The position numbers were made by a program, and so were the translations under genes. 60,648 bases of DNA, taken from positions 1 to 60,648 of IMG/VR virus record IMGVR_UViG_3300032266_000396. One strand, written 5' to 3'. This document shows positions 15,649 through 41,400 of this stretch, one piece after another. The DNA comes from a virus (lineage: Duplodnaviria > Caudoviricetes). The stretch's first letter is position 1. Every line of letters starts with the position of its first letter. The notes under the pieces are model-generated. The model saw nothing but the letters and a program-made list of their open reading frames with translations, ran no database searches and was not told the DNA's origin.

Positions 15649-17265
15649 TTAGTCTTCAGCTTGCACATAAGTACGAGCTAACGTAATTATGGCGTTAGTG
15701 CTCAAGATTGTTACAGCTACACTCACTGCATTCTGTAATGCTGAACGTGTTACTTTCAATGGGTCAATTACTCCCATCTTTATCAGGTCTCCAAACTCTC
15801 TTGTCTTCAAGTTGTAACCTTGTCCTTGAGCAACTCCATCTTTATAAATGTCCGATGCTTTCAATCCTGCGTTGTCAAGTATCTGCAAGAACGGAGCCAT
15901 AAGTGCACCTTTCAAAATCATCACAGCCGCATTATACTCAGGGCTTTTGTCCTCATCTATGCACAAAGCTGCTGACTCTTCAAGTAAAGCCTTTCCTGCA
16001 CCCGGAAGAATCCCTTCCTCTAGTGCAGAACGCACTGCACAAACAGCATCATCAACTCTATCAAACAACTCTTTCTGCTCCAAATCGGTCTGTCCACCTA
16101 CGAAAATTACCCCAATTCCACCCGTTAAAGAGGCGATTCTCTCCAAAATAAAGTCCTTATCGTGCTTTTTTGTGGCTATTTTATGGGCATCCCATAGCTG
16201 ATTTACCCTTTCCTCAATAGCTTTTTGGTCTAATTTCAGGTCAGATTTGATGATAACAGTCTTGTCTTTGCTGACAATTACCTTAGCTGCGTGCCCAAGG
16301 TCTCCATAATTGATAATACTCAGGTCATCCCCGGTCTTCTCACTGAAGTATGTAGCCCCAACACTGATAGCAATGTCGTGCATTAACTCGTGCTGCTTGT
16401 ACCCGAAGCTCGGAGGAGCAACTGCACACACTTTGATATGACCCTTCATCACGTTTGCCGCCAAACTATTAATCAAGTTCTGACCACAAGGAGAAATGAT
16501 TAGCAACTTTTTACCTTCTGAAACAATTGGTTTCAATACGTTCTCAATCTGAAGGATATTTGTAATCTCCATATCAGCTACCATTACCATAGTGTCTTCA
16601 AAGACACACTCGTCTTTCTTTTGGTCATTGATAAACATAGGGCTCAAGTACCCTCTATCAAACTTCAACCCTAATGTGGTTTCAGCATAGGTCTCTGTAC
16701 TTTGGCTTTTCTCTACCGTAACAATCCCTGTCTTACCTACATCTTTGTACACCTCAGCGATTATCCTTCCAATCTCTCGGTCATTGTTTGCAGATATACT
16801 CGCCACATCTACTAACATTGTACTCGTAACTCTCTTGCTTCGTCTTCGTAACTTATCCACCACCTTGTCGCTTATCTCCACCATACTTCTCAGGACCTCA
16901 GTTCGGTTCATATCCTCACTGATAAGACCAAGCCCATTAATAACTAACCCTTCAGTTAGAACAATAGCTGTGGTTGTACCATCTCCTGCTGCGGTAGCAG
17001 TTCTGTCGGCAGCTTCCTTCATCATCTTAACCGCAAGGTTCTCACTCGGGTCCAATAAGTCAATTGATTTTGCAACTGTTACTCCATCTTTGGTAACAGT
17101 AATACCGTGGGTGTGGTTTGGGGATTCAATTAGTACAGGATTTCCTCCCGGACCCAATGTACTCTTTACAGCTTTGGACATTTTTGTAACGCCACTAACT
17201 AATTTCTTCCTGCCTGTGTCTCCAAAACACAAATCTTTAGGAGAATAACCTTGATTTTCTAACAT
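15649..17265 (-). CDS. groEL: Chaperonin GroEL
   Basis: TLGPGG, VTKDGVTVAK, AGDGTTTA, FDRGYLSP, ERIASL and GVIDPLKVTRSALQNA motifs. Confidence 0.97.
   Translation of the reverse strand: MLENQGYSPKDLCFGDTGRKKLVSGVTKMSKAVKSTLGPGGNPVLIESPNHTHGITVTKDGVTVAKSIDLLDPSENLAVKMMKEAADRTATAAGDGTTTAIVLTEGLVINGLGLISEDMNRTEVLRSMVEISDKVVDKLRRRSKRVTSTMLVDVASISANNDREIGRIIAEVYKDVGKTGIVTVEKSQSTETYAETTLGLKFDRGYLSPMFINDQKKDECVFEDTMVMVADMEITNILQIENVLKPIVSEGKKLLIISPCGQNLINSLAANVMKGHIKVCAVAPPSFGYKQHELMHDIAISVGATYFSEKTGDDLSIINYGDLGHAAKVIVSKDKTVIIKSDLKLDQKAIEERVNQLWDAHKIATKKHDKDFILERIASLTGGIGVIFVGGQTDLEQKELFDRVDDAVCAVRSALEEGILPGAGKALLEESAALCIDEDKSPEYNAAVMILKGALMAPFLQILDNAGLKASDIYKDGVAQGQGYNLKTREFGDLIKMGVIDPLKVTRSALQNAVSVAVTILSTNAIITLARTYVQAED
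16592..16607. repeat. 16-bp palindrome GTGTCTTCAAAGACAC inside groEL
   Basis: Exact copy; encodes CVFEDT. Confidence 0.9.
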
Positions 17266-17879: not shown

Positions 17880-18053
17880 TTTGCGAAATTTTAAAAGTTC
17901 ATTACAAAGATAGGTTTTTTTTCTTATCAGGTGTATATACTGTTTGGGTAGTATGGCGGTTTGGCGAGCCGACCCCTCGCAGGAAAGTGAGATTTTTTTA
18001 GAGGGGTGGGGGGGCAATTCCGAAAAAAGTCTCAGATTTTTTAGGCTTTTTGC

Positions 18054-18177
18054 TACAGCCTACAGCCTCCCGCTCCCGCTACAGCCTACATCTACAGCGA
18101 CCAATACAGCGACCGATACAGCCCCGCTACAGCGACCAATACAGCCCCGCTACAGCGACCCGCTACGCTCCGCTGTA
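18054..18177 (+). repeat. TACAGC short-repeat array (9 direct copies, 1 inverted)
   Basis: TACAGC at 18054, 18061, 18080, 18093, 18105, 18117, 18128, 18140, 18151; GCTGTA at 18172. Confidence 0.85.
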
Positions 18178-18189
18178 GCCCTCCGCTTT

Positions 18190-18205
18190 GTGTCTTTAAA
18201 GACAC
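18190..18205. repeat. 16-bp palindrome, perfectly symmetric variant GTGTCTTTAAAGACAC
   Basis: One mismatch to the consensus. Confidence 0.85.
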
Positions 18206-18462: not shown

Positions 18463-19101
18463 ATGAGTACACTTTTAACAATCGAGGCGGCTTTTTTAAG
18501 CAATTCACAGGTAGCAACAGCAATCAATTTGCGAGAGATTAGAGGGCTTCAAAGAACTTTAGCCAACGGGCAAAAAAAGAAATTTCAACAGACTTTGGAA
18601 TTATCGGCTAAGGTGGTGGAGGCTGTAAATTGGTTTTCATCCGAAGAGGGCAAAACAGTAACAGCCGAAGCGGGCATTTATTGGACAAACGAGCAAATCG
18701 GAAACAAAGTTTTTGGATGGCAAAAAAGCTACTTTTACAAAGTAGTTAAGGCGGGCAAATTGGAGGCTACAAAGGTGGAGCAATTCAACAGCCTATGCGA
18801 TGAAGCCGAAGCGAGAGGCGAAGAGCCAAACAGAACTTTAGAGGGCTTATTGAAATTTGCCCGCTTAGGTGGTGGAGAGACCAACAGCGAAGCGGGTGGA
18901 GAAGAGAGCGGAGAAGAGGGCGAAGAGAGTGGCGAAATCGGGGTTGAAATTCGCATCCCGACAATTTTCACAATGACTTACAAAGGTGGCAACAAAAACG
19001 TATCAATTCGCATCAATGAGGCGGGTGCAATTGCGACCACAAACAGCACCGAAGAAATTTTGGAGGCTATAGCATTTTTAACTAATTCAATCAATCAATA
19101 A
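18463..19101 (+). CDS. Hypothetical early protein
   Basis: 212 aa, first plus-strand gene; possible HTH (FGWQKSYFYKVVK) and an acidic Gly/Glu linker. Confidence 0.75.
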   Translation: MSTLLTIEAAFLSNSQVATAINLREIRGLQRTLANGQKKKFQQTLELSAKVVEAVNWFSSEEGKTVTAEAGIYWTNEQIGNKVFGWQKSYFYKVVKAGKLEATKVEQFNSLCDEAEARGEEPNRTLEGLLKFARLGGGETNSEAGGEESGEEGEESGEIGVEIRIPTIFTMTYKGGNKNVSIRINEAGAIATTNSTEEILEAIAFLTNSINQ

Positions 19102-19104
19102 TTT

Positions 19105-19120
19105 GTGTCTTCAAAGACAC
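19105..19120. repeat. 16-bp palindrome upstream of the amidoligase gene
   Basis: Exact copy in the intergenic gap. Confidence 0.9.
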
Positions 19121-19138
19121 TTTAAAACCAATTTTTTT

Positions 19139-20059
19139 ATGAGAGCAACAGCACAAACAGGCGTAATTTACACGACTACAGGAGAAACAAGAAGAGGACA
19201 GGTAACAGGCTACCACAGTAAGCCACAGCCAAATTTTTTAAACAAAACAGCCCACAGGGTTGATGTTGCGGGGCTTAAAGCCATAGAGCAAAGAACAGCC
19301 ATCAAATTTGATGGTAGAGAGTACGAGAGCAAATTTACAATCGGGTTCGAGGTTGAAAAAAATCAACTAAGCCGTAATGCTGTGAGAGAGTACGAGCTTT
19401 TTTGCGGGTTCGAGACAGACAGCTCTTGCGGTTACGAGGCGGTTACTCACATTTTACCTTTGCTACCTGCGGGGCAATGGAGAACAAAAGTTTACGATAT
19501 GATGTATAAGGCGGAGCGTATCATAGACGACAGCCACAGCCCAAGCGACAGACGATGTGGCGGACATATCACAATCGGGGTCGATGGCTTGAATGGGGTT
19601 GAAATTAACGACTTAGTTCGAAAAAATGCGGGTATCGTTTTAGCCTTATTTCGCAAGCGTTTAAATAACACTTATTGCGGGTCTAATCGTAGAATGCAAC
19701 CCGAGTATGAGAGCCGATACAATTCAACTACAGGCTACCACTACAGCAACAGCGGATGGCATCACAAGTACCAAACAGCCCTTGTAAAAGGTCGCACTTT
19801 AGAGTTCCGAGTACCGAGCAAATTCGAGAGCGTGAAGCAAATGATGAGACGATACGAGTTGTTTTATGAGTTGGTAAACTACAGCGTAAACAACCCGAGA
19901 GGTACAAGCGAGAAGTTTCTTAAAACCATCAAGCCAATCATCAAGTCGATGTACAACGGAGACGACAGCAAGACAGAGGAAATTTTGAGACTTGCGAGAC
20001 TATTCCAAAAGTTCATCAATAAGGGCGAAATTCATCCCGATATTGCAATGTTCCTTTAG
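19139..20059 (+). CDS. Putative amidoligase (COOH-NH2 ligase fold)
   Basis: TIGFEVE, ETDSS, YEAV, CGGHI, KYQ and TLEFR motifs; ATG at 19139. Confidence 0.75.
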   Translation: MRATAQTGVIYTTTGETRRGQVTGYHSKPQPNFLNKTAHRVDVAGLKAIEQRTAIKFDGREYESKFTIGFEVEKNQLSRNAVREYELFCGFETDSSCGYEAVTHILPLLPAGQWRTKVYDMMYKAERIIDDSHSPSDRRCGGHITIGVDGLNGVEINDLVRKNAGIVLALFRKRLNNTYCGSNRRMQPEYESRYNSTTGYHYSNSGWHHKYQTALVKGRTLEFRVPSKFESVKQMMRRYELFYELVNYSVNNPRGTSEKFLKTIKPIIKSMYNGDDSKTEEILRLARLFQKFINKGEIHPDIAMFL

Positions 20060-20067
20060 CAAGCAAA

Positions 20068-20085
20068 GGGGCGGGAAACCGCCCC
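20068..20085 (+). promoter_or_regulatory. GC-rich GAAA-tetraloop hairpin abutting hammerhead 1
   Basis: GGGGCGG-GAAA-CCGCCCC with no U-tract. Confidence 0.75.
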
Positions 20086-20136
20086 GCTGTATGCGGATGA
20101 GTGTCCGCACTGATGAGCCCAAAAGGGCGAAACAGC
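20086..20136 (+). ncRNA. Hammerhead ribozyme type III (HHR1); predicted cleavage after 20091
   Basis: GCUG-UA^-UGCGGA-UGAGUG-UCCGCA-CUGAUGA-GCCC-AAAA-GGGC-GAAA-CAGC: full core and three perfect stems. Confidence 0.93.
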
Positions 20137-20155
20137 AACCTAAAATTTTTGAGTT

Positions 20156-20347
20156 ATGAAATTAGAAATTTGTTTAAAATCGTTTGCCTTAGCTGTAGTT
20201 TATTTGTCCTTAGCTGTAGCCCTTACAAGCGGGAAAGTTCAGGAGTTCATCAAATTCAATTCGGTAGATGCGGAGATGTTCGCCTTTATCCTTAGCAGTG
20301 GGATGGGTATTGCTTGCTTAGTTGCTTCACTAAAACTAAAACGATGA
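20156..20347 (+). CDS. Small two-TM membrane protein flanked by HHR1 and HHR2
   Basis: 63 aa with two hydrophobic segments. Confidence 0.7.
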   Translation: MKLEICLKSFALAVVYLSLAVALTSGKVQEFIKFNSVDAEMFAFILSSGMGIACLVASLKLKR

Positions 20348-20383
20348 TAGTGCGAGAGGCGGGCAAATTTTAAAGCGGGTGGA

Positions 20384-20399
20384 GTGTCTTCAAAGACAC
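20384..20399. repeat. 16-bp palindrome abutting HHR2
   Basis: Exact copy. Confidence 0.9.
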
Positions 20400-20400
20400 C

Positions 20401-20449
20401 CCGTACACCGATGAGTGTCGGTGCTGATGAGTTCAAAAGAACGAAACGG
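20401..20449 (+). ncRNA. Hammerhead ribozyme type III (HHR2); predicted cleavage after 20405
   Basis: CCG-UA^-CACCGA-UGAGUG-UCGGUG-CUGAUGA-GUUC-AAAA-GAAC-GAAA-CGG. Confidence 0.92.
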
Positions 20450-20467
20450 AAACCTAATCTAATCAAG

Positions 20468-20614
20468 ATGAACAAACAAGACAAGGCGAAAGCCAAAGAG
20501 CAACACCGTAGAGCGACAGCTTTTTATGAGTGGTTACAAAAAATGGGTAATGTTTATATGGCAGACACCCGCAGAATGGATAGAGCAATTTTAATCTTGA
20601 TTGAAAATGTGTAG
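20468..20614 (+). CDS. Small hypothetical protein (48 aa)
   Basis: ATG 18 nt after HHR2: MNKQDKAKAKEQHRRATAFYEWLQKMG. Confidence 0.6.
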   Translation: MNKQDKAKAKEQHRRATAFYEWLQKMGNVYMADTRRMDRAILILIENV

Positions 20615-20849
20615 CGTGGAGCAGATTCAGGAGGCAATACTTCGGGATGGGGTAGCCTTCATAAATGTGTGGTCGCAAGATTGCGATGGAGTTCAGGCAC
20701 AATACCACAAAGAGTTTCAATCGGTGGAGGAGTTTTTAGCGTGGGAGGTGAATTTTTACGAGTGGGCAGAGGGTCGCCAAGGCTATAGCCTAACAGACAA
20801 AGACAACCTCGATGAGGCAGTTACGTGGGGTGGATGGGGCGATTACTAA
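20601..20849 (+). CDS. Acidic hypothetical protein
   Basis: WSQDCDG...YEWAEG; ORF track. Confidence 0.65.
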   Translation: MKMCSVEQIQEAILRDGVAFINVWSQDCDGVQAQYHKEFQSVEEFLAWEVNFYEWAEGRQGYSLTDKDNLDEAVTWGGWGDY

Positions 20850-20900
20850 GCCCCGCCAAGCCCCATAAACAAAGGGATTTTAAAAATAATTGACATTTTA

Positions 20901-20932
20901 TTTGGTAGTGTCGAAATATCGTTCTACCTTTG
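20901..20932 (+). promoter_or_regulatory. Early promoter TTTG-N20-TACCTTTG
   Basis: Full Bacteroidota sigma-A consensus. Confidence 0.8.
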
Positions 20933-20963
20933 TCGAAATTTAGTTCAACAAATCAATTAATCA

Positions 20964-20979
20964 GTGTCTTCAAAGACAC
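20964..20979. repeat. 16-bp palindrome downstream of a promoter
   Basis: Exact copy. Confidence 0.9.
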
Positions 20980-20994
20980 AAAAAACCAAAACAA

Positions 20995-21555
20995 ATGAGA
21001 GTTACAACAGAAAAAATTTGCAGAGCTTTTGAAAGCAGAAGAGCGTTGACCTTAGGGAACAGCAAAACAGATGGAAACAGCCTTTGGCTATTCGGGAATG
21101 AAATTGCCCAATGGCGTGAAGATGGAATTTGGATTACCAATGCGGGGTGGAACAGCAAAACCACCAAGGAAAGGTTGAATGGATTAACGGGAGTTAGCAT
21201 CCAACAAAGAGAGGGCAATTTGTACTTGAATGGGAATTTTTGGCAAGGCGAGTGGACAAGCGTAAATGCTAACAACGGAATAGTATCGACCCCGCAAGAG
21301 GCAGTGCTATTTGACATCACAAGCGAGTGGAAAGGTAAGTACAGCAAGCCAATCTATGCTGTAGCCCACAAGTACACCGAGGCAGACCTATCCGCTTGCG
21401 AGTGCATATTGAATGCAAACGGAATAGTGCACAGAATTATCGAGAGCGACACCGAAGGAGAGTACAAGCCTAATTACTTCTTAGTAGTTCGCCCTCAGGA
21501 TTACGACTTAGCTTTAACTATTATTAATCAAAAAAATGTTACGCAGTGTATTTAG
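20995..21555 (+). CDS. Hypothetical early protein
   Basis: 186 aa; LFGNEIA...ITNAGWNSKTTKERLN motif. Confidence 0.75.
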   Translation: MRVTTEKICRAFESRRALTLGNSKTDGNSLWLFGNEIAQWREDGIWITNAGWNSKTTKERLNGLTGVSIQQREGNLYLNGNFWQGEWTSVNANNGIVSTPQEAVLFDITSEWKGKYSKPIYAVAHKYTEADLSACECILNANGIVHRIIESDTEGEYKPNYFLVVRPQDYDLALTIINQKNVTQCI

Positions 21556-21650
21556 TATTTTTTATCGTGTTAGTTTCAATGCTTGCTTCAAGTTGTGCAA
21601 GTAGATGCAAGCAACAGCGTAGATATTGGAGCAACCACAGATGCGTATAA
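21546..21650 (+). CDS. Possible small lipoprotein (34 aa)
   Basis: GTG start; hydrophobic stretch, LASSC lipobox, basic tail. Confidence 0.35.
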   Translation: MYLVFFIVLVSMLASSCASRCKQQRRYWSNHRCV

Positions 21651-21662
21651 ATTCATAGGGGA

Positions 21663-21678
21663 GTGTCTTCAAAGACAC
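21663..21678. repeat. 16-bp palindrome abutting HHR3 (extended stem GAGTGTCTT/AAGACACTC)
   Basis: Exact copy. Confidence 0.9.
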
Positions 21679-21682
21679 TCTC

Positions 21683-21733
21683 GCTGTCTCGGAGTGAGTG
21701 CTCCGACTGACGAGACCAAGAGGTCGAAACAGC
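21683..21733 (+). ncRNA. Hammerhead ribozyme type III (HHR3); predicted cleavage after 21688
   Basis: GCUG-UC^-UCGGAG-UGAGUG-CUCCGA-CUGACGA-GACC-AAGA-GGUC-GAAA-CAGC. Confidence 0.93.
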
Positions 21734-21752
21734 TAACTTAATACCTAAAAAA

Positions 21753-22061
21753 ATGAGCAGTAATGACATTTTAATTGCAGAATTTATGGGGTTTCAAAAA
21801 ACCTCAATCGGTTGGTTCGACTACAATGAACACCTTTGTTTACCAAACACATCAGACAATACTTTTGATGAGTTGAAATTTCAATCAGATTGGAATTGGA
21901 TGATGCCCGTAATTCAGAAGATATTAGATATATCTTTGAATTTAGATAGTATGGAAATGTACTATAACATAACAGACAGCATACCTAAAATTGACCAAAC
22001 ATACAAAGAGGTGGTAGAATTTATTATTAACTATAACACTACAGAAAATGAGCAGAATTAA
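21753..22061 (+). CDS. Hypothetical protein
   Basis: IAEFMG...LKFQSDWNWMMPVIQKI motif; ATG 19 nt after HHR3. Confidence 0.7.
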   Translation: MSSNDILIAEFMGFQKTSIGWFDYNEHLCLPNTSDNTFDELKFQSDWNWMMPVIQKILDISLNLDSMEMYYNITDSIPKIDQTYKEVVEFIINYNTTENEQN

Positions 22062-22437
22062 AATCACAAAACAAGATGAGTTCGTGTGGTTGTTGGTAAC
22101 AGACAAATCACGTGAGATTTTTATGAGCGGGTTGTTTGAGTTGTACATCCTTTACAAAGATGACAGCGAGACCCTAATCGAGGGCTACTCTCAATTGCTT
22201 GAGGCACTTGAGAACGGAATGGACATCGGCATCGAAGTAGGACATTTGAATGAAGATAAATTAAAAGATGACCAAGTGTTTCTACAGAAGCAAATCGTTG
22301 ACAAGGCGGGCATCAATATCGTATCGTGTGGAATGTGTGCCGAGGTAATTTTGCACAGACTTACGGATGAAACTATACTTTGCCCTCATTGTGAGTTCAA
22401 TTCAGACCCTTGCGATTTTCCCGACCTAAATTATTAA
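22048..22437 (+). CDS. Hypothetical protein with C-terminal zinc ribbon
   Basis: CGMC...CPHC...DPCDFPD. Confidence 0.65.
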   Translation: MSRIKITKQDEFVWLLVTDKSREIFMSGLFELYILYKDDSETLIEGYSQLLEALENGMDIGIEVGHLNEDKLKDDQVFLQKQIVDKAGINIVSCGMCAEVILHRLTDETILCPHCEFNSDPCDFPDLNY

Positions 22438-22441
22438 TCAG

Positions 22442-22597
22442 ATGGAGGCAACTAAATCGTTTAACGTGTATTACGATGGCGTATTCGTACAGACCATAAC
22501 AGCCCACAGCGGGTTCGAGGCAATAGACAAAGTTTTCTATTTGTACATAGAGAAACACCCGACCCTCGAGAGAAAAAAATTCAGTACTAAAAAATAA
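22442..22597 (+). CDS. Small hypothetical protein (51 aa)
   Basis: MEATKSFNVYYDGVFVQTITAHSGFEAIDKVF... Confidence 0.5.
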   Translation: MEATKSFNVYYDGVFVQTITAHSGFEAIDKVFYLYIEKHPTLERKKFSTKK

Positions 22598-22608
22598 TTC
22601 AAAATAAA

Positions 22609-22640
22609 TTTGGCAGTGTCGATTACTTGTCGTACCTTTG
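22609..22640 (+). promoter_or_regulatory. Early promoter TTTG-N20-TACCTTTG
   Basis: Full consensus; near-copy of the promoter at 20901. Confidence 0.8.
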
Positions 22641-22669
22641 TCCAATATTAGTTCATTAATCAGGATTCT

Positions 22670-22685
22670 GTGTCTTCAAAGACAC
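22670..22685. repeat. 16-bp palindrome downstream of a promoter
   Basis: Exact copy. Confidence 0.9.
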
Positions 22686-22707
22686 TATCCACAAATCAAA
22701 TCAAGTT

Positions 22708-23832
22708 ATGTGTGTTATCATTATCAAACAAAAAGGTTATCAAGTGTCTAAAGAAATTGCTCAAACATCCGCAAGGATTAACCCTCACGGATTAGGCATC
22801 GTGTGGCTCGACACATTCGAGGTTACTTACCACAAGTCAGCAGAATATAAATTGCTTGACACAGACCGCCCATTTATTGCTCATTTCAGATATGCTACTG
22901 TTGGGGCTATAGGCAGACAAAACACCCACCCATTTCAATGTGGCAATAACAAAAACGAGTACCTAATGATGAACGGCACAATCAAGGGGCTTGGCAATAT
23001 GAAGCAAAGCGATTCAAAAGTATTGGCGATTAAACTTGGAGACATACCACGCCCTCAGTGGAAGTTGGAGTTGGCTCAATACGATTGCCGATTCGTTACC
23101 ATCAATACCTACAGCAAATCGTTTCAGATTTACAACCGAGAGGATTGGATTCAGAAAGATGGCGTTTGGTACAGCAAGGAGAATGTACTTGAAGACAACT
23201 ATGTTGCAGTGTATGGCACACTAAAGAAAGGCTATTCAAACTATTGGCACTACCTATCAGGAAGCAATTTTGTAGGCAGTGGCACGACCACAGACAAGTA
23301 CCCGCTTGTAGTTAGCGGGCTACCTTACCTCATCGAAAACAAGGGCTTAGGACATAACGTGAATGTAGATGTGTTTAAGGTTACGGATTCAAAGCTAAAG
23401 AGTTTAGACCAACTTGAGGGGCATCCGAGATGGTATTGCAGAAAGCAAATCAATATCACAATCAAGGGCAAGCAAGTCCTTTGTTGGATTTACTTTAACC
23501 TCAAGGAGGTTGCAGATAACAAAGTATTCCACAAGTCCTACGTTCAGGCTAAGCCAAAGTATCAGAGTTTTGGAAACTACAAAAGTTTTAAAAGTTTCGG
23601 CACAGCATCGTACCCAAAAAAGTATGAGACCATACCCGCAAAAGTACAGCCACAGAAAATGTTTCAGGATTGGTTTTCAGATGTGGATGATACACCAGAG
23701 TTCGATGTGCAGAACGAAACCCCGATGTGTGTCGCTTGCTACAACGACTTAGTGTTTGATGGGTTCAATAACTACCATTGCAGTAGTTGTAACACGTGGC
23801 ACTCAGAGGCAGATGTATTGAGAAAATTTTAG
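22708..23832 (+). CDS. Class II glutamine amidotransferase + gamma-glutamylcyclotransferase (AIG2-like) + zinc-ribbon fusion
   Basis: N-terminal MC, NPHGLG, HFRYAT, NTHPF, NGTI, SDS; then VAVYGTLKKG and LDQLEGHPRWY; CVAC/CSSC. Confidence 0.85.
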   Translation: MCVIIIKQKGYQVSKEIAQTSARINPHGLGIVWLDTFEVTYHKSAEYKLLDTDRPFIAHFRYATVGAIGRQNTHPFQCGNNKNEYLMMNGTIKGLGNMKQSDSKVLAIKLGDIPRPQWKLELAQYDCRFVTINTYSKSFQIYNREDWIQKDGVWYSKENVLEDNYVAVYGTLKKGYSNYWHYLSGSNFVGSGTTTDKYPLVVSGLPYLIENKGLGHNVNVDVFKVTDSKLKSLDQLEGHPRWYCRKQINITIKGKQVLCWIYFNLKEVADNKVFHKSYVQAKPKYQSFGNYKSFKSFGTASYPKKYETIPAKVQPQKMFQDWFSDVDDTPEFDVQNETPMCVACYNDLVFDGFNNYHCSSCNTWHSEADVLRKF

Positions 23833-23843
23833 TACCTTAGGGA

Positions 23844-23859
23844 GTGTCTTCAAAGACAC
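23844..23859. repeat. 16-bp palindrome abutting HHR4
   Basis: Exact copy with extended stem. Confidence 0.9.
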
Positions 23860-23861
23860 TC

Positions 23862-23912
23862 TCCGTATCGAGATGAGTGTCTCGGCTGAAGATTCCAAAA
23901 GGATGAAACGGA
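23862..23912 (+). ncRNA. Hammerhead ribozyme type III (HHR4); predicted cleavage after 23867
   Basis: UCCG-UA^-UCGAGA-UGAGUG-UCUCGG-CUGAAGA-UUCC-AAAA-GGAU-GAAA-CGGA; U-U mismatch at the base of stem II. Confidence 0.85.
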
Positions 23913-23930
23913 AACTAAAATCAAAAGATT

Positions 23931-24212
23931 ATGAAAATCTATTTAAAATTTGACCACAGCAAAAAAGATTCCCTCGAGGCTATTGGTTGTGAGCACAATA
24001 AGAGAGAAGTTAATGACAGAGTATTTGAAGTCATCAAGTGGTACAGCGAAGATGATAGTTTGAACAAGAGGAGCCAACTATCCGAGTTGCTTCACAAAAA
24101 CCTCGAGTACGAGGAAATTTTATTCCTTGCCACTGAGTCCGTAGAGGAGAATATGGGAAGAATGATGATTGAAAAAATAAAAGATGATTTAAGAGACTTT
24201 TTAAATTTATAA
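23931..24212 (+). CDS. Hypothetical protein
   Basis: 93 aa; ATG 18 nt after HHR4. Confidence 0.7.
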   Translation: MKIYLKFDHSKKDSLEAIGCEHNKREVNDRVFEVIKWYSEDDSLNKRSQLSELLHKNLEYEEILFLATESVEENMGRMMIEKIKDDLRDFLNL

Positions 24213-24215
24213 ACT

Positions 24216-24440
24216 ATGCAAGTATTTAGAGTTAACACCACAGCGTACAAGGAGGAAGACTTTTACCTCCTTACGGAACTTACCGAACAAGATATTGTAG
24301 AGGTAGTAATGCCAATCGTAAATGCAGAGCGAGATGGCTATGAAGAGTATGACAATGAGTTGCTTTTAGATGCACTCAAAAAGCGTTACCCGAGAAAGAA
24401 AATTGACTTATACTCGGAGTTTGAACTAATCACGATTTAA
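24216..24440 (+). CDS. Hypothetical acidic protein
   Basis: ORF track, 74 aa. Confidence 0.65.
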   Translation: MQVFRVNTTAYKEEDFYLLTELTEQDIVEVVMPIVNAERDGYEEYDNELLLDALKKRYPRKKIDLYSEFELITI

Positions 24441-24441
24441 T

Positions 24442-24582
24442 AGGGTGGCACTCGGAAATCCTTACTTGTCGGTAATGTAGGCGGTTGCAATGCTAATGGT
24501 TAATTTGGTTGCCACCTTGCATCACTTGATGCACTCATAAAACTGAAATTGCAATAAGACTGACAGCTTGGAAAGACAAGCA
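24442..24582 (+). ncRNA. Candidate structured RNA of unknown class
   Basis: Stem AGGGUGGCA/UGCCACCUU, hairpins UGCAUC/GAUGCA and GCUUG-GAAAGA-CAAGC; no convincing ORF. Confidence 0.35.
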
Positions 24583-24585
24583 AAT

Positions 24586-24687
24586 GGGCAAGTGGCGAAA
24601 TGGTAAACGCAGGTATGGAGTAATTAACCATATTGAACTTACTCTCTTGGCGAGAGTGTTATGCAGGTTCGACCCCTGCCTTGCTCA
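24586..24687 (+). tRNA. tRNA-like RNA (class II, Leu-like body) with a non-canonical anticodon arm
   Basis: Acceptor GGGCAAG/CUUGCUC+A; D arm GCG-AAAUGGUAAA-CGC; T arm GCAGG-UUCGACC-CCUGC; anticodon arm 7 bp with a 9-nt loop; long variable arm. Confidence 0.7.
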
Positions 24688-24710
24688 CTAACTTTTAAAT
24701 TTAATTAAAA

Positions 24711-25007
24711 ATGGATGCAAATCAAATCAATGACATCGAGGTAAAAGACTTCGATGTAGTCAGCAGAGACTTCGATGCGGTAATCAGAAGACTTGACATC
24801 GAGAACGCAAAAGAATTATTAAAAAGAGAGGGCTACTTCGTGGACAATCTTTGGCAGACTTGTGATGTTACTATGAACCACGAGTGCACAGAAGAACAGG
24901 CACAGACCATTCTTAACAAAGCATTGACCAATGATGCTACCTATCAACAAATTTGGGAGGCTATCAGTTACGAAGCAGAGAGTATGAACCTAAAACGTAG
25001 AGACTAA
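24711..25007 (+). CDS. Hypothetical protein
   Basis: ORF track; GYFVDNLW. Confidence 0.65.
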   Translation: MDANQINDIEVKDFDVVSRDFDAVIRRLDIENAKELLKREGYFVDNLWQTCDVTMNHECTEEQAQTILNKALTNDATYQQIWEAISYEAESMNLKRRD

Positions 25008-38458: not shown

Positions 38459-41400
38459 TTATTGACCAAACTTCTTACTCCCAAAACTACTCTTTGATGA
38501 TTTACTTTCTCCAAGTCCTTTATCTCCAAATTCTTTTGAGCCAAATCCTTTTTTATCTTTTGGAACGTAATTATTCATATCATCCTTAGCATCTCTTTCC
38601 TTGGCTTTTTCTATAGCTTTAGCTTCTTTTTCGTCAATATGATTTTCATACCAATCCGATTTTTCTCCAAAAGTTTCTTCGTAAAGTTTAGGGTCGTATC
38701 GTTTCATATCTTCTCTATTCTCATACCCTTGAAGTAGCTCCTTGCCTAATTCTCTATCTTCCTTGGCTAATTTCTCATCTCTTGATGTTTGTTTCTTCTT
38801 AGCCATTTTTATAGAACCTCTTATAGCACCTGCTATTTCAGGAGGGAATACACCAATATTGGTCAAGAAAGCAGGACCTAATAAAACACCTAATGCTTTT
38901 CTATCTCTTTCAGATATTTCGTGTTCTTTGTTGAAATCATCTTTGTATTTTCCTGTAGCCCATAATTTTACCATTCCAAACAATTGCATAGCTCTATCAG
39001 GAGCTATACCATACATCCCAAGAAATTTTACAAACTCCTCAGGTTTTGTTGAGTATAAAGACAGTCTATCTTCCTCATCCATATCTAAAGCATCTTGAAC
39101 TCCTGCTAAGAAATTTGCAGCTCCTGTTTGAACAATTTTATCAAGAATAGGTAATGGAGAAAAAACATCCGTAACTACAGATGTAGCTTGACCTTTTAAT
39201 ACTCCATCTCTTCTTTTCTTTTCTTCATCATCAGTCTCTCCTTTGCCCATCATAGATGCAGCAGCATATCCTGTTAGTATAGCAATACCGGCAGACATAG
39301 CTCTAAAAGTAGCCATCTCCGCTGCATAACCCGCCAAAGACCTTGCGGCAACAATTTTGTCCTCTTTAGTTGAAACATTCCAATATCCTAATGTTGAAAG
39401 GTCAGCACCTAATCTTGACGATTGGTTCATTCTGAAACTTGCAAAAGCCATAAATATCTTAGTAAGCACTTGCTTACCTGTTTCTTTAGAAGAAAATAAA
39501 CTTCCTGCTAAATCGTGGTCAGATACGTTTTGCTGTCTATCTACCATCCTTTGAGCATAGTTTGCCGCTGTCTCATTTAGTGGATGGTCAGAGTAATCAA
39601 TATTCTTATAGTCTTTACCTTGTTGTTTCAAAGACTTCTCATAGTAAGCCTTGAAGGAAGCTCTTGCTACAGCAACATCGGGTCTAACCAAGAATGTTTT
39701 TAACCATTTTCTATTTGCTTCTTCAATAAGCTCCATCGCTCTTTTTGCGTTTGAGTTTGCTGCTTCTTCAATTAATTTATTAATTGATTCAACTTCTGCT
39801 TGAGACTCTATACCTCTATTAGCAATGGCATATCCTGACTGTGAAATCCAATTATTAAAATCAGAATTGAAAGATGCTGTTAAGCTAAAAGTTCCTGCAT
39901 TTACCCACGTATTTACAGCTACCGGAACAAACTGTTTGAAAACTTGAGTCGGTCCTCCTAATGCTTGTCCAACACCAAGAGTTGCTATTTTATTCAGTTT
40001 TCTAACTGCCTTAGAAAGCTCGTCATTTGAATATGGATTCTTGTTTCTTGTGTTGGCAACATATAATTGAACTCTATTAGTAAGTAGCTTTGCATCCTCA
40101 GGATTTGGAACTATTTTACTAAAATTCTCAGAATTTAAAAACGCCTGAACCTGTCTTATTGGAGCTGCTGTCTCAATATCCACAAGTGCATCATACATAG
40201 AGTTAGAGTTGTTTCTATCAAATGATAAATCAATATAACTCAATACGTTTTTATTTCCATTCATAGGAAGCGTGTTTGTTCCTGTTGTGTCCATCAAAAC
40301 GCCTGTTTTTTTGTTGTACAACACACCATTGGTATTATTGATAAATGCAGAATCGCTATTAGTCAAGTCAACATCTTGAGGAGCACTCTCTAATCTAACA
40401 TACTTATCAGGAGAATAATTCAAGTCTCTATCTAAGTTTTTGTTGTAAACATTAAGAGCTACATCCGCTAATCTGTCAAATTGATTATCCCATTGTTTAT
40501 GCCAAAAGTAAATAGCCTCTAAATTTTTAGGGTCAGTATTGTCTTTTATTCCCTGAATATCATTTGCATCTGCGATTACTTTGTCATATACCTTTTGGTA
40601 CAATTCTGCTTTCTTTTGCTCTTGTTCGTTACCTTTTCTTAAAGCTGCAATAGATTGGTCTATTAAACCTTTTCTTCTTCCAAACTCTATTTGCATTTCT
40701 TGCTCAGTTCCAATAACATTTCTAATCATAAACGCAGCCATACCTCTTTCAGTATTATTTTCTGCTGTATTAAACTTCTGCCCATTTGGTCTTACATCTT
40801 TATTGTAAAACTGTTTAACGTAGTCGTTAATGATATTATTTGACTGAGTTTGTGCGTATGCCTTTCTGTTAATCAATTTTGTCAATCCCATTAAGTCCTG
40901 AACCACACCACCACGGTTAAACCCCTTGAACATTTTTTCAAAAAGAATATTTAAGTTGGTAGTTTGCTCCCCAAAAGTTCTACCAAGTTGTTTGAAGAAG
41001 AACTTTCTTAATGCGATAGCTTTGATTCCTTTTCTTAAAACAATTTTTGTGTTATTATTTCCTTCGTATATAGAAGTAACAGCATCCATAGAAGCTGTTG
41101 ATTTATTCTCTATGAAGTTGGCAAGTGCATCAACTGCGGCAAGAGCATTTTTAGTAGTCATATTTTTAGGGTCCATAGCCATAAATTTAGAGATGATTTC
41201 TTTTTCTCTTTTAGTATATTCTACTTCTTCTCCCGTAAACGCATCTACTCCGGTATCTATACTGTTCTGTATCATTGCAGAATAAATCTCAAATGCTGTG
41301 TTGATGGTATCTCTTACTATACCCTCGTTTTTATCTGTCATTGGTTTATCTTCCTCTAACAGAGCCATCATCTCAGCCTCAGTAAAAGTAGAAGCATCTA

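What the first reader, a model, noticed from the sequence alone, without database searches (positions are those of the whole stretch)
20068..23930. Four type III hammerhead ribozymes punctuate the early operons
Seen: hammerheads at 20086, 20401, 21683 and 23862, all on the sense strand, each with CUGANGA, GAAA and a GUH site. Stems I and II differ in sequence yet stay paired across copies (stem I UGCGGA, CACCGA, UCGGAG, UCGAGA; stem II GCCC, GUUC, GACC, UUCC). Loop I is always UGAGUG and loop II is AARA. Known: this is the type III hammerhead fold, loop I-II contacts speed cleavage, and single hammerheads have been reported in phages. Inference: the phage uses a dispersed ribozyme family to cut polycistronic early RNA into separate mRNAs without protein, analogous to RNase III sites in the T7 early region.
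Basis: partly seen in the sequence, partly recalled or inferred. Interest (0 to 1): 0.93.

Follow-up and report, generated by a model that had tools for sequence, protein, structure and literature searches.

The report
Four hammerhead ribozymes between phage genes
Four genuine self-cutting hammerhead RNA motifs sit between early genes of a 60-kb Flavobacterium-type phage, each wedged between a hairpin and the next gene's start; this arrangement has been described before, and its purpose is still untested.

Summary
Four complete type III hammerheads lie at 20086-20136, 20401-20449, 21683-21733 and 23862-23912, all on the + (coding) strand. A structural descriptor finds 4 in the window, against a mean of 0.02 in 200 shuffles. 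A clade-specific covariance model scores them 70.7-78 bits, and the next best hit scores 12.6. None reaches Rfam's RF00008 cut-off of 48.5 bits (46.1, 41.8, 19.6, no match).

The same ribozyme type is common in IMG/VR phages. Of 63 unique hits to a pattern with no pairing requirement, 62 have a perfect stem I. Eleven checked ~60-kb genomes carry 1-4 copies, clustered on one strand.

Each copy belongs to a fixed module: a strong hairpin, the hammerhead, an 18-19-nt A-rich, G-poor Bacteroidia-type leader, then ATG.

Self-cleavage that sets gene-start RNA ends is the best reading. It is inferred, not shown, and it is not new: Perreault et al. 2011 described clustered prophage hammerheads and proposed the same idea.

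The less expected element is a 16-nt hairpin, GTGTC-N6-GACAC. It marks gene starts with or without a hammerhead, and it is the only such mark at these junctions in a hammerhead-free relative.

The parts
20068..20085 (+). GC-rich hairpin (GGGGCGG-GAAA-CCGCCCC) directly upstream of hammerhead 1. It starts 9 nt after the stop of ORF 19139-20059.
   Evidence: Sequence. Folded as a 7-bp hairpin in the MFE.
20086..20136 (+). Hammerhead 1, type III. Stem III GCUGU/ACAGC, GUA, stem I UGCGGA(U)/(G)UCCGCA, CUGAUGA, stem II GCCC/GGGC, loop AAAA. Predicted cut between 20091 and 20092.
   Evidence: Rfam RF00008 46.1 bits, E 6.1e-07 over the whole window. Model R1 78 bits.
20137..20347 (+). 19-nt A-rich leader, then ORF 20156-20347 (63 aa, no family match).
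20384..20399 (+). Conserved hairpin GTGTCTTCAAAGACAC directly upstream of hammerhead 2.
20401..20449 (+). Hammerhead 2, type III. Stem III CCGU/ACGG, GUA, stem I CACCGA/UCGGUG, CUGAUGA, stem II GUUC/GAAC, loop AAAA. Predicted cut between 20405 and 20406. ATG at 20468 follows after 18 nt.
   Evidence: R1 73.6 bits. Rfam gives only 19.6 bits in an alignment that skips stem I.
21659..21682 (+). Conserved hairpin (core 21663-21678) extended by 4 flanking pairs (GGGA/UCUC), directly upstream of hammerhead 3.
21683..21733 (+). Hammerhead 3, type III. Stem III GCUGU/ACAGC, GUC, stem I UCGGAG/CUCCGA, CUGACGA, stem II GACC/GGUC, loop AAGA. Predicted cut between 21688 and 21689. ATG at 21753 follows after 19 nt.
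   Evidence: Rfam 41.8 bits. R1 70.7 bits.
23840..23863 (+). Conserved hairpin (core 23844-23859) extended by GGGA/UCUC. It overlaps the first 2 nt of hammerhead 4.
23862..23912 (+). Hammerhead 4, type III variant. Stem III UCCGU/ACGGA, GUA, stem I UCGAGA/UCUCGG (U-G at its base), CUGAAGA, stem II UUCC/GGAU with U10.1/U11.1, loop AAAA. Predicted cut between 23867 and 23868. ATG at 23931 follows after 18 nt.
   Evidence: R1 72.2 bits. No Rfam match. About 91% identical over 47 nt to the hammerhead of Pseudomonas Bruynoghevirus phages.
19105..19120 (+). The same hairpin without a hammerhead, 18 nt before the ATG of ORF 19139-20059 (amidoligase-like lead).
20901..20979 (+). Bacteroidota-type promoter-like site (TTTG-N20-TACCTTTG, 20901-20932), followed by the hairpin (20964-20979) and the ATG at 20995.
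   Evidence: The promoter consensus is recalled, not tested.
22609..22685 (+). Second promoter-like site (22609-22640), followed by the hairpin (22670-22685) and the ATG at 22708 (GATase/GGACT-domain protein).

Best explanation
These are four functional type III hammerhead ribozymes, transcribed as part of rightward mRNAs of a Flavobacteriia-type podophage.

Proposed mechanism. Each ribozyme folds just after an upstream hairpin has formed. It then cuts itself 3' of H17, at 20091/92, 20405/06, 21688/89 and 23867/68.
- The upstream RNA is left ending in a 2',3'-cyclic phosphate, 5-6 nt past a strong hairpin.
- The downstream RNA starts with a 5'-OH and the folded ribozyme body. An unstructured A-rich, Shine-Dalgarno-free leader of 18-19 nt and the start codon follow at once.

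The module therefore acts as built-in, protein-free gene-start punctuation. It uncouples a translation unit from whatever RNA lies upstream, and it gives each product a structured, exonuclease-resistant end.

Shown here: the motifs themselves, their selection (covariation), their fixed position relative to the hairpin and the start codon, and their clustering in one variable gene block.

Inferred: cleavage itself, its efficiency (least certain for copy 4), 'early' timing, and any effect on stability or translation.
For: 1. All core positions and the three-helix topology are present in all four copies. There are 4 hits against 0.02 expected, all on the coding strand and all in 96-120-nt intergenic spacers that the module almost fills.

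2. The family is under structural selection.
- An IMG/VR scan with a pattern that demands no pairing found 64 loci. Of its 63 unique matches, 62 have 6/6 stem I pairs, 51 have 4/4 and 12 have 3/4 stem II pairs, 62 have at least 4/5 stem III pairs, and H is C (32) or A (31), never G.
- On the 108-sequence alignment the covariation score is 0.698, against 0.224 when shuffled (0 of 500 shuffles reach it) and at most 0.128 when the partners are slid. Caveat: the rows were picked by a pairing descriptor.

3. Orthologous copies in the 86%-identical genome G001/L008 keep the fold through double changes (rows, synteny).
- Hammerhead 2, stem I: CACCGA/UCGGUG becomes CAAGGA/UCCUUG.
- Hammerhead 3, stem I: UCGGAG/CUCCGA becomes UCAAGG/CCUUGA.
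- Hammerhead 3, stem II: GACC/GGUC becomes GCCU/AGGC.

4. The module is constant.
- Of 122 hammerheads, 117 have an ATG-ORF of at least 30 aa within 120 nt, and 105 of them at 12-32 nt (median 21).
- 105 of 122 have an upstream 36-mer that folds at -8 kcal/mol or better, against 6.8% of 600 random 36-mers.

5. The leaders match a Bacteroidia translation initiation region. They are 53% A and 2.7% G, with A at -12 in 90%, and 3 of 99 hold a Shine-Dalgarno-like word. This matches the F. johnsoniae region described in PMC6847099 (section 15 read).

6. The hairpin is reinforced only where a hammerhead follows. It has at least 3 extra flanking pairs in 79% of 53 such cases, against 19% of 57 before a bare ATG and 15% of 67 elsewhere.

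7. Precedent.
- Clustered prophage hammerheads cleave in vitro and, for one arrangement, in E. coli. The HF1/HF2 halovirus hammerhead lies 13 nt before a start codon, with a mapped 5' end within 3 nt of the cut (PMC3088659, passages).
- PaP3's hammerhead is named in that paper's legend of 'active' variants. It carries the same U10.1/U11.1 stem II as copy 4.
Against: - No RNA evidence of any kind bears on this phage.
- No copy reaches Rfam's RF00008 gathering score.
- Copy 4 has a U/U mismatch next to the core. Its predicted MFE is a competing fold, in which the 3' arm of the hairpin pairs with the loop I/stem I segment.
- For copies 1-3 the MFE shows the hairpin, stem I and stem II, but not stem III. 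Nearest-neighbour models ignore the tertiary core.
- The ribozymes are dispensable on evolutionary scales. MW202828 (primase 75% identical in protein) has none. At the orthologous junction after the GGACT gene it has only the hairpin.
- Some relatives place the ribozyme before the first gene of an operon. There it cannot be separating cistrons.
Confidence: 0.75

Rival explanations
1. The selected effect is on the downstream gene only. On this view the hammerhead is a natural 5'-UTR insulator, like the synthetic RiboJ part. It trims any upstream RNA, whether a promoter leader or a preceding cistron, so that the mRNA starts with a 5'-OH, a compact fold and a standard Bacteroidia initiation region. 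Separating cistrons would be incidental.
For: - The ribozyme-to-ATG spacing is tight: 18-19 nt in the window, and 12-32 nt in 105 of 117 family members.
- The leaders carry the A(-11 to -13), A-3 and A-6 signature.
- Some family members precede the first gene of an operon: elemoE at 17 nt before the ATG at a divergent region, and phiIBB-PAA2/PaP3 directly before orf01/orf71 and downstream of annotated promoters.
- RiboJ is described as a hammerhead plus a hairpin that normalises the 5'-UTR, and uncleaved mRNA is modelled as decaying faster (PMC7536230, passages).
Against: - This view does not explain why the hairpin upstream of the cut is reinforced specifically when a hammerhead follows. That points to a role for the upstream product too.
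- All four window copies lie between co-oriented ORFs, not after promoters.
Confidence: 0.35
2. The hammerheads are passengers. They would be parts of small gene cassettes (hairpin, ribozyme, leader, small ORF) that shuffle among phages by recombination at the repeated hairpin/ribozyme sequences. They would persist because they are harmless, not because cleavage matters.
For: - All of hammerheads 1-3 lie in a 2.65-kb block (20060-22707) that is absent from MW202828. There the amidoligase-like and GGACT genes are adjacent.
- The ORF right after hammerhead 3 (21753-22061) is missing in the 86%-identical G001.
- Downstream genes are diverse: 117 proteins fall in 66 clusters.
- Copy number varies from 0 to 4 among related genomes.
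- Near-identical ribozyme sequence sits in front of unrelated genes in Flavobacteriia-type and Pseudomonas phages.
Against: A neutral passenger would decay, yet:
- stems covary while the core stays invariant in 108 distinct sequences;
- orthologous copies show only compensatory changes;
- H is never G;
- spacing to the ATG is tightly kept.
Confidence: 0.12
3. Cleavage is regulated. The upstream hairpin, or a protein bound to its conserved GUGUC/GACAC stem, would switch the ribozyme on or off through an alternative pairing with the loop I/stem I segment.
For: - For copy 4 the MFE is exactly such an alternative fold.
- The hairpin core is sequence-conserved beyond what pairing needs.
Against: - Across the family, the 2 nt after GACAC do not covary with loop I. 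For example, TC occurs with GAG 14 times and with GUG 5 times, and GAG occurs with TC 14, TG 8 and TA 6 times.
- Loop I is the same in phages whose upstream hairpin has a different sequence.
- Copies 1-3 fold with the hairpin and stems I and II intact.
Confidence: 0.08
4. Segments flanked by two hammerheads (314, 1283 and 2179 nt) are excised with 5'-OH and cyclic-phosphate ends and are then ligated into circular, translatable RNAs.
For: Stem III is nearly constant (C-Y-G-U/A-C-R-G) across copies. The ends of one excised segment could therefore pair with at most one mismatch.
Against: - No data bear on this phage.
- Perreault et al. looked for spliced or circular products in their tandem arrangements and report finding none ('data not shown').
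- Many family members are single copies per genome.
Confidence: 0.03

Closest known systems
Clustered hammerhead ribozymes flanking genes in prophages (Perreault et al. 2011, PMC3088659; passages read, supplements not visible)
   Same: Several hammerheads lie within a few kb, in sense orientation between small, non-constant genes. The same hypothesis was proposed (long phage RNAs cut into gene- or operon-length mRNAs). Three such arrangements were shown to cleave in vitro.
   Different: - Those examples are prophages of Clostridium, Azorhizobium and Agrobacterium, and mix hammerhead types I, II and III. Here the host phage is a ~60-kb virion-type genome with terminal repeats and Bacteroidota signals, and all copies are type III with 4-6-nt loops.
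- The fixed hairpin, ribozyme, 20-nt leader, ATG module and the GTGTC-N6-GACAC partner are not mentioned in the passages I read.
- Their Dataset S1 alignments, which I could not open, may already hold members of this clade.
Hammerhead of Pseudomonas phage PaP3 and other Bruynoghevirus phages
   Same: It is type III, with U10.1/U11.1 (stem II UUCC/GGAU), U-G at the base of stem I, H = A, and loops UGYGUG and WAAA. It lies immediately before a start codon. It is about 91% identical to window copy 4 over 47 nt. PaP3 is named in the legend of the paper's figure of active core variants.
   Different: There is one strong copy per genome (plus one weak 19.3-bit hit in phiIBB-PAA2). It lies before the first ORF after the terminal repeat and annotated promoters. 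The host is a gammaproteobacterium, and the downstream protein is unrelated. It has no GTGTC hairpin upstream.
RNase III processing sites of the T7 early region (recalled textbook knowledge; not checked in a paper here)
   Same: Both are intercistronic signals that cut a polycistronic early transcript, and both leave a hairpin at the 3' end of the upstream message.
   Different: T7 needs the host protein RNase III and long imperfect duplexes. Here catalysis would be by the RNA itself, giving 5'-OH and 2',3'-cyclic-phosphate ends.
RiboJ-type synthetic ribozyme insulators (as described in PMC7536230, passages read)
   Same: Both are a hammerhead plus an added hairpin placed in the 5'-UTR, so that the mRNA 5' end is independent of upstream context.
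   Different: RiboJ is engineered from a plant satellite-RNA ribozyme. As I recall, its hairpin lies downstream of the ribozyme; in the natural module the hairpin lies upstream of the cut.
Rfam RF00008 Hammerhead_3
   Same: The consensus core and topology are the same. Copies 1 and 3 align end to end with E about 1e-7.
   Different: All four copies fall below the gathering score of 48.5 bits, so standard annotation pipelines would not report them. Loop I is longer and loop II shorter than in the model consensus (alignments).

Membership tests
Hammerhead ribozyme, type III | Conserved core: C3 U4 G5 A6 N7 G8 A9, G12 A13 A14, A15.1-U16.1, and H17 not G. | tested here: met
   All four copies carry CUGA(U/U/C/A)GA, GAA, the A15.1-U16.1 pair and GUA/GUA/GUC/GUA.
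Hammerhead ribozyme, type III | Three helices around the core, with stems I and II closed by loops and stem III open (type III topology). | tested here: met
   Stem I is 6-7 bp, stem II 4 bp and stem III 4-5 bp in each copy. Stem I and II hairpins appear in the MFE of copies 1-3.
Hammerhead ribozyme, type III | Helices supported by covariation in homologues. | tested here: met
   One search is not circular: 62 of 63 unique pattern hits have a perfect stem I; covariation 0.698 against 0.224 shuffled, and 13 of 17 pairs show changes on both sides. Orthologous compensatory changes against G001.
Hammerhead ribozyme, type III | Watson-Crick pair at 10.1-11.1, adjacent to the core. | tested here: inconclusive
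   It is G-C in copies 1-3 and U/U in copy 4. The U/U class makes up 30 of the 108 family sequences and includes PaP3, whose ribozyme is listed as active in PMC3088659. I could not see that figure.
Hammerhead ribozyme, type III | Loop I-loop II tertiary contact that allows fast cleavage at low Mg2+. | not testable with these tools
   Loops are strongly conserved (UGAGUG/UGUGUG and AAAA/GAAA/AAGA). That is compatible with a contact but does not show one.
Hammerhead ribozyme, type III | Site-specific self-cleavage giving 2',3'-cyclic-phosphate and 5'-OH ends. | not testable with these tools
   No RNA run was listed, and no bench assay was possible.
Rfam RF00008 (Hammerhead_3) | Score at or above the curated gathering threshold of 48.5 bits. 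| tested here: not met
   46.1, 19.6, 41.8 bits and no match for copies 1-4. This is an annotation threshold of one model, not a biochemical criterion.
Clustered phage/prophage hammerheads (Perreault 2011) | Two or more hammerheads within a few kb, co-oriented with and flanking short genes of a phage. | tested here: met
   Four copies lie in 3.8 kb on the coding strand. Eleven related genomes have 1-4 copies, those with more than one keeping them within about 5 kb on one strand.

The most novel reading that the evidence does not exclude
The real punctuation mark of these early operons is the 16-nt hairpin GUGUC-N6-GACAC, not the ribozyme.

On this reading the hairpin is a sequence-specific RNA signal, placed about 15-23 nt before start codons and read by an as yet unknown phage or host protein. 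That protein could be a processing nuclease or a translational regulator acting on many early genes at once.

Hammerheads would then have been recruited repeatedly next to this signal, as a hard-wired, protein-independent way to make the same cut. That would leave natural ribozyme-plus and ribozyme-minus versions of the same junction. The clade would be a ready-made system for finally measuring what phage hammerheads are for.
Probability: 0.25. Interest if true: 0.7.

Novelty: new member of a known kind. Interest (0 to 1): 0.45.

Why it matters
What bacterial and phage hammerheads do is still called an open question in the 2019 review PMC6765202 (passage).

This phage clade offers a clean test bed:
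- Cultured relatives on Flavobacterium carry one copy (elemoE/F).
- The host group's translation signals are well characterised (PMC6847099).
- Nature provides junctions with hairpin only, hairpin plus ribozyme, and promoter plus hairpin in otherwise related genomes.

There is also a practical point. Rfam's threshold misses all four copies, so such ribozymes are probably under-annotated in Bacteroidota phage genomes.

Tried and rejected
- Chance: rejected.

- Extra or degenerate copies, or other ribozyme classes, in the window: none. Rfam at E up to 10 over the whole window gave only copy 1, a tRNA-like hit and noise. Model R1 with filters off gave nothing above 12.6 bits apart from the four.

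- The 3' tail of the upstream cleavage product tucked into an extended hairpin: not supported. A mean of 2.58 of the last 6 nt are paired, the same as in controls with a shuffled 5' flank (Wilcoxon p = 0.53, 118 products).

- A hairpin-arm/loop-I alternative pairing acting as a conserved switch: no covariation.

- The ribozyme travelling with one gene family: no. The ORF after copy 4 and phiIBB-PAA2 orf01 share no similarity, and the 117 downstream proteins fall in 66 clusters.

- The U/U class being an unusually sequence-conserved allele: only weakly. Stem I strand identity is 0.52, against 0.48 in the G-C class, although 14 of 30 share A-UC(G/A)(A/G)GA-U.

- Host assignment from bacterial genomes: the pattern hit 6 contigs, of which 4 are titled Saccharibacteria, Patescibacteria group or Wolfebacteria, 1 Zixiibacteriota and 1 only 'uncultured bacterium'. 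This was not informative and I did not follow it.

- RNA evidence: no RNA holder was listed for window 19000-25000.

- A candidate hairpin-binding protein: the two conserved upstream ORFs gave no RNA-related lead. ORF 19139-20059 has an amidoligase-like lead (PF12224 on 12-15% of members of the nearest clusters), and ORF 18463-19101 gave nothing.

- Literature:
  - 'hammerhead' + 'LUZ24': 0 papers.
  - The 16-mer as a string: 0 papers.
  - 'hammerhead ribozyme' + 'Flavobacterium' + 'phage': 2 papers, judged unrelated from their titles and the starts of their abstracts only.
  - These searches cover only the held library. The supplements of PMC3088659 (Dataset S1, Figures S1-S7) were not visible and may already list this clade and show which PaP3 position is variant.

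Full report
THE WINDOW
The window is a whole IMG/VR virus record of 60,648 bp with direct terminal repeats and 35% G+C.
- ORFs run leftward from about 17.3 kb to 0.8 kb.
- They run rightward from about 17.9 to 38.4 kb: small ORFs first, then replication genes such as an 807-aa primase/helicase.
- They run leftward again from 60.6 to 38.5 kb, with large structural ORFs.

By protein, the primase is closest to MW202828 (75% identity, an uncultured 60.8-kb podovirus). Next come the Flavobacterium phages vB_FspP_elemoE/F, at 43% over the first third. Polaribacter, Maribacter, Tenacibaculum, Cellulophaga and Bacteroides phages follow further down the list. Two promoter-like sites of the Bacteroidota type (TTTG-N20-TAnnTTTG; the consensus is recalled) lie at 20901-20932 and 22609-22640. 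The host is therefore most likely a member of the Flavobacteriia. That is an inference.

THE OBSERVATION
Copy 1, as an example, reads: GCUGU-A / UGCGGA-UGAGUG-UCCGCA / CUGAUGA / GCCC-AAAA-GGGC / GAA / ACAGC. Copies 2 to 4 have the same layout with different stems.
- A descriptor of my own finds exactly these four on the + strand and none on the - strand. In 200 dinucleotide-preserving shuffles the mean was 0.02 hits and the maximum 1.
- Rfam's Hammerhead_3 model aligns copy 1 (46.1 bits, E 6.1e-07 for the whole window) and copy 3 (41.8 bits) end to end. It gives copy 2 only 19.6 bits in an alignment that drops stem I, and it misses copy 4. None reaches the gathering score of 48.5, so the default Rfam search returns nothing.
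- A covariance model built from 108 relatives scores the four at 70.7-78 bits. The best other place in the window, on either strand with filters off, scores 12.6 bits. The window copies were part of that model, so their own scores are by construction. The informative result is that there is no fifth copy.
- Copy 4 differs from the other three. It has U/U at 10.1/11.1 and a U-G pair at the base of stem I.

IS THE FOLD SELECTED?
I scanned IMG/VR with a pattern that fixes only loop I, the core, loop II and GAAAC, and leaves all stem positions free. It found 64 loci. Among the 63 unique matches:
- stem I pairs at 6 of 6 positions in 62;
- stem II pairs at 4 of 4 in 51 and at 3 of 4 in 12;
- stem III pairs at 4 or more of 5 in 62;
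- the cleavage-site nucleotide is C (32) or A (31), never G.

This test is not circular.

Applied to the fetched loci, the descriptor found 118 hammerheads in 65 of 66 loci. After removing duplicates I aligned 108 sequences.
- The covariation score is 0.698, against 0.224 in shuffles (0 of 500 reach it) and at most 0.128 when the partners are slid.
- 13 of 17 pairs change on both sides.
- These rows had been chosen by a pairing descriptor, so the percentage paired is not evidence. The diversity of stems is.

The genome G001 (locus L008) is 86% identical in DNA and carries four syntenic copies. They differ from the window's by compensatory double changes:
- hammerhead 2, stem I: CACCGA/UCGGUG against CAAGGA/UCCUUG;
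- hammerhead 3, stem I: UCGGAG/CUCCGA against UCAAGG/CCUUGA;
- hammerhead 3, stem II: GACC/GGUC against GCCU/AGGC.

None of the differences is disruptive.

THE MODULE
The four intergenic spacers (20060-20155, 20348-20467, 21651-21752, 23833-23930) are 96-120 nt long. Three parts almost fill them.

1. A hairpin directly 5' of the ribozyme. Before copy 1 it is GGGGCGG-GAAA-CCGCCCC. Before copies 2, 3 and 4 it is the exact 16-mer GTGTCTTCAAAGACAC.

2. The ribozyme itself.

3. An 18-19-nt leader and the ATG of the next ORF.

This layout is a family property.
- Of 122 hammerheads (4 from the window and 118 from loci), 117 have an ATG-ORF of at least 30 aa within 120 nt. In 105 of them it lies at 12-32 nt, with a median of 21.
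- 105 of 122 have an upstream 36-mer that folds at -8 kcal/mol or better, against 6.8% of 600 random 36-mers.
- 65 of 122 carry GTGTC...GACAC upstream.
- The 99 unique leaders are 53% A and 2.7% G, against a background of 31% and 19%. A occupies -12 in 90%, -11 and -13 in about 70%, and -3 and -6 in about 60%. Only 3 of 99 hold a Shine-Dalgarno-like word.
- This is the initiation-region signature measured in Flavobacterium johnsoniae: A at -14 to -11, especially -12 and -13, plus A-3 and A-6, with no Shine-Dalgarno use (PMC6847099; abstract and section 15 read).

Each ribozyme is thus placed so that its 3' product begins with the folded ribozyme and continues straight into an optimal, unstructured start region.

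THE HAIRPIN IS AN ELEMENT IN ITS OWN RIGHT
The 16-mer occurs 12 times in the window (11 exact and 1 with TTTAAA in the centre), against 0.02 expected. Nine of the 12 lie between 16.6 and 23.9 kb.
- Three precede hammerheads.
- Three sit 15-22 nt before an ATG without a hammerhead. Two of those follow the promoter-like sites.
- Three lie inside long ORFs, two of them antisense.

In the 64 IMG/VR loci (583 kb) there are 190 GTGTC-N6-GACAC motifs.
- Read on the hammerhead strand, the centre is TTCAAA 97 times and its complement TTTGAA 16 times.
- 58 directly precede a hammerhead, 69 precede an ATG-ORF within 45 nt (mode 17-23 nt), and 63 lie elsewhere.
- The stem is lengthened by 3 or more flanking pairs in 79% of 53 unique hammerhead-linked copies. 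The figure is only 19% of 57 before a bare ATG and 15% of 67 elsewhere.

MW202828, which has no hammerhead, carries GTGTCGTTAACGACAC 13 times in 13.6 kb. Seven of its 11 early-gene junctions longer than 20 nt hold one. That includes the junction after the GGACT gene, where the window has hairpin plus hammerhead 4.

I conclude that the hairpin is the common mark of gene starts in this clade. The hammerhead is an addition at some of them, and where it is added the hairpin is strengthened. The strand bias and the flank covariation favour an RNA-level role. However, copies inside ORFs, the palindromic half-sites and possible copy-paste spread leave a DNA-level role open. I found no paper that holds the 16-mer (held library only).

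DISTRIBUTION AND TURNOVER
Model R1 was run on whole records:

| Record | Hammerhead matches |
|---|---|
| G001 | 4 |
| Ten further ~60-kb IMG/VR genomes | 2, 1, 3, 4, 2, 1, 2, 3, 2, 4 |
| elemoE, elemoF | 1 each |
| phiIBB-PAA2 | 1 strong, plus 1 weak (19.3 bits) |
| MW202828 | 0 |

The ten further genomes were chosen because they already had a pattern hit, so their minimum of 1 is by design. Where a genome has more than one copy, they lie within about 5 kb on one strand.

The elemoE copy lies 17 nt before the ATG of the first gene of a leftward block, at a divergent region. The Pseudomonas copies lie directly before the first ORF.

In the window, hammerheads 1-3, both promoter-like sites and eight small ORFs form a 2.65-kb block (20060-22707). 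That block is absent from MW202828, where the amidoligase-like and GGACT genes are neighbours. The ORF after hammerhead 3 is absent from G001. Genes downstream of hammerheads are diverse, with 117 proteins in 66 clusters. Even so, each of the window's four downstream ORFs has relatives that are also preceded by a hammerhead in other phages.

COPY 4
Its U10.1/U11.1 form is not a one-off defect. Of the 108 aligned sequences, 30 have U/U, 3 have A/A and 2 have G/U at this pair.

The same form, about 91% identical over 47 nt, is found in 65 Pseudomonas phage records. These include PaP3. [quoted passage not shown] I could not see the figure, so the identity of the variant position there is my inference.

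The predicted MFE of copy 4 with its flanks is a competing fold. The family shows no covariation for that alternative. I rate copy 4 as probably active but the least certain of the four.

MECHANISM AND RIVALS
The best reading is self-cleavage at the four GUH sites during or just after transcription.
- The upstream product ends in a reinforced hairpin.
- The downstream product starts with a 5'-OH and a compact fold, followed by a standard start region.

This is both 'processing of polycistronic RNA' and '5'-UTR insulation', and the data here cannot rank the two. The reinforced hairpin speaks for a role of the upstream product. The first-gene copies in elemo and PaP3-type phages speak for a role of the downstream product.

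The remaining rivals are weaker, for the reasons given in their entries: passenger elements of shuffling cassettes, a regulated switch, and RNA circles.

No RNA data exist for this phage in what I could reach. No RNA holder was listed.

COMPARISON WITH WHAT IS KNOWN
Clustered hammerheads in prophages, the mRNA-processing hypothesis, in vitro and in-E. coli cleavage of tandem arrangements, and a halovirus hammerhead 13 nt before a start codon with a matching mapped 5' end were all published in 2011 (PMC3088659).

Later literature still calls the function unresolved. This comes from a passage of the 2019 review PMC6765202 and a passage of the introduction of PMC13725137.

The finding is therefore a new member of a known kind. 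The report adds four things:
- a well-populated Bacteroidota-phage clade that Rfam's threshold misses;
- the fixed hairpin, ribozyme, leader module;
- the GTGTC-N6-GACAC hairpin as an independent gene-start mark;
- natural junction variants with and without the ribozyme.

VERDICT
Interest is moderate.

Noticed in passing
window 5271, 16592, 18190, 19105, 20384, 20964, 21663, 22670, 23844, 29841, 35574, 43435 (each 16 nt): The near-palindromic hairpin GTGTCTTCAAAGACAC occurs 12 times against 0.02 expected. Most copies lie 15-22 nt before start codons or directly before hammerheads. Three lie inside long ORFs (16592 and 35574 antisense, 43435 sense). Related phages hold 190 copies in 583 kb, and a hammerhead-free relative uses it at 7 of 11 early junctions. 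Its function is unknown.
   Followed up: partly
window 24586-24687 (+): A tRNA-like gene. Rfam tRNA scores 39.1 bits (above the cut-off of 29, but seen only in the E-value search), with 45 nt where the model has 17. The fold shows a cloverleaf with a long variable arm and a 9-nt anticodon loop. ARAGORN reports no tRNA in the window.
   Followed up: partly
window 18053-18174: Imperfect tandem repeats (units of 7-35 nt around CTACAGCGACC) in the region between the divergent gene blocks, next to a hairpin copy at 18190. They may be iterons or a regulatory array.
   Followed up: no
window 19139-20059 and 22708-23832 (+): An amidoligase-like protein (lead only: PF12224 on 12-15% of members of the nearest Atlas clusters) and a protein with a weak class-II glutamine amidotransferase match plus a clear GGACT gamma-glutamyl cyclotransferase domain (E 8.9e-23). 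The two are adjacent in MW202828. In the window the 2.65-kb block that holds three of the hammerheads separates them.
   Followed up: partly
window 20060-22707 versus L002 6860-6917: A hyperplastic block of eight small ORFs, two promoter-like sites and three hammerheads, absent from the relative MW202828. ORF 21753-22061 is also absent from the 86%-identical genome G001.
   Followed up: yes
window 15649-17265 (-): A 538-aa ORF syntenic with the gene annotated 'groeL' in MW202828, with a 'chaperonin 10 kd subunit' gene next to it there. This looks like a phage-encoded chaperonin pair.
   Followed up: no
window 38459-46954 (-): A very long ORF of 2831 aa, with an internal sense copy of the hairpin at 43435.
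   Followed up: no
L070-L075 (genome collection): The loop/core pattern also hits six MAG contigs. Four are titled Saccharibacteria, Patescibacteria group or Wolfebacteria, one Zixiibacteriota, and one only 'uncultured bacterium'. They could be mis-binned phage contigs or phages of those lineages.
   Followed up: no
L086 1013-1069 (- strand) = MT497078.1 28912-28968: The cultured Flavobacterium phages elemoE/F carry one unannotated hammerhead (44.9 bits with R1), 17 nt before the first gene of a leftward block. This gives a tractable system for experiments.
   Followed up: partly
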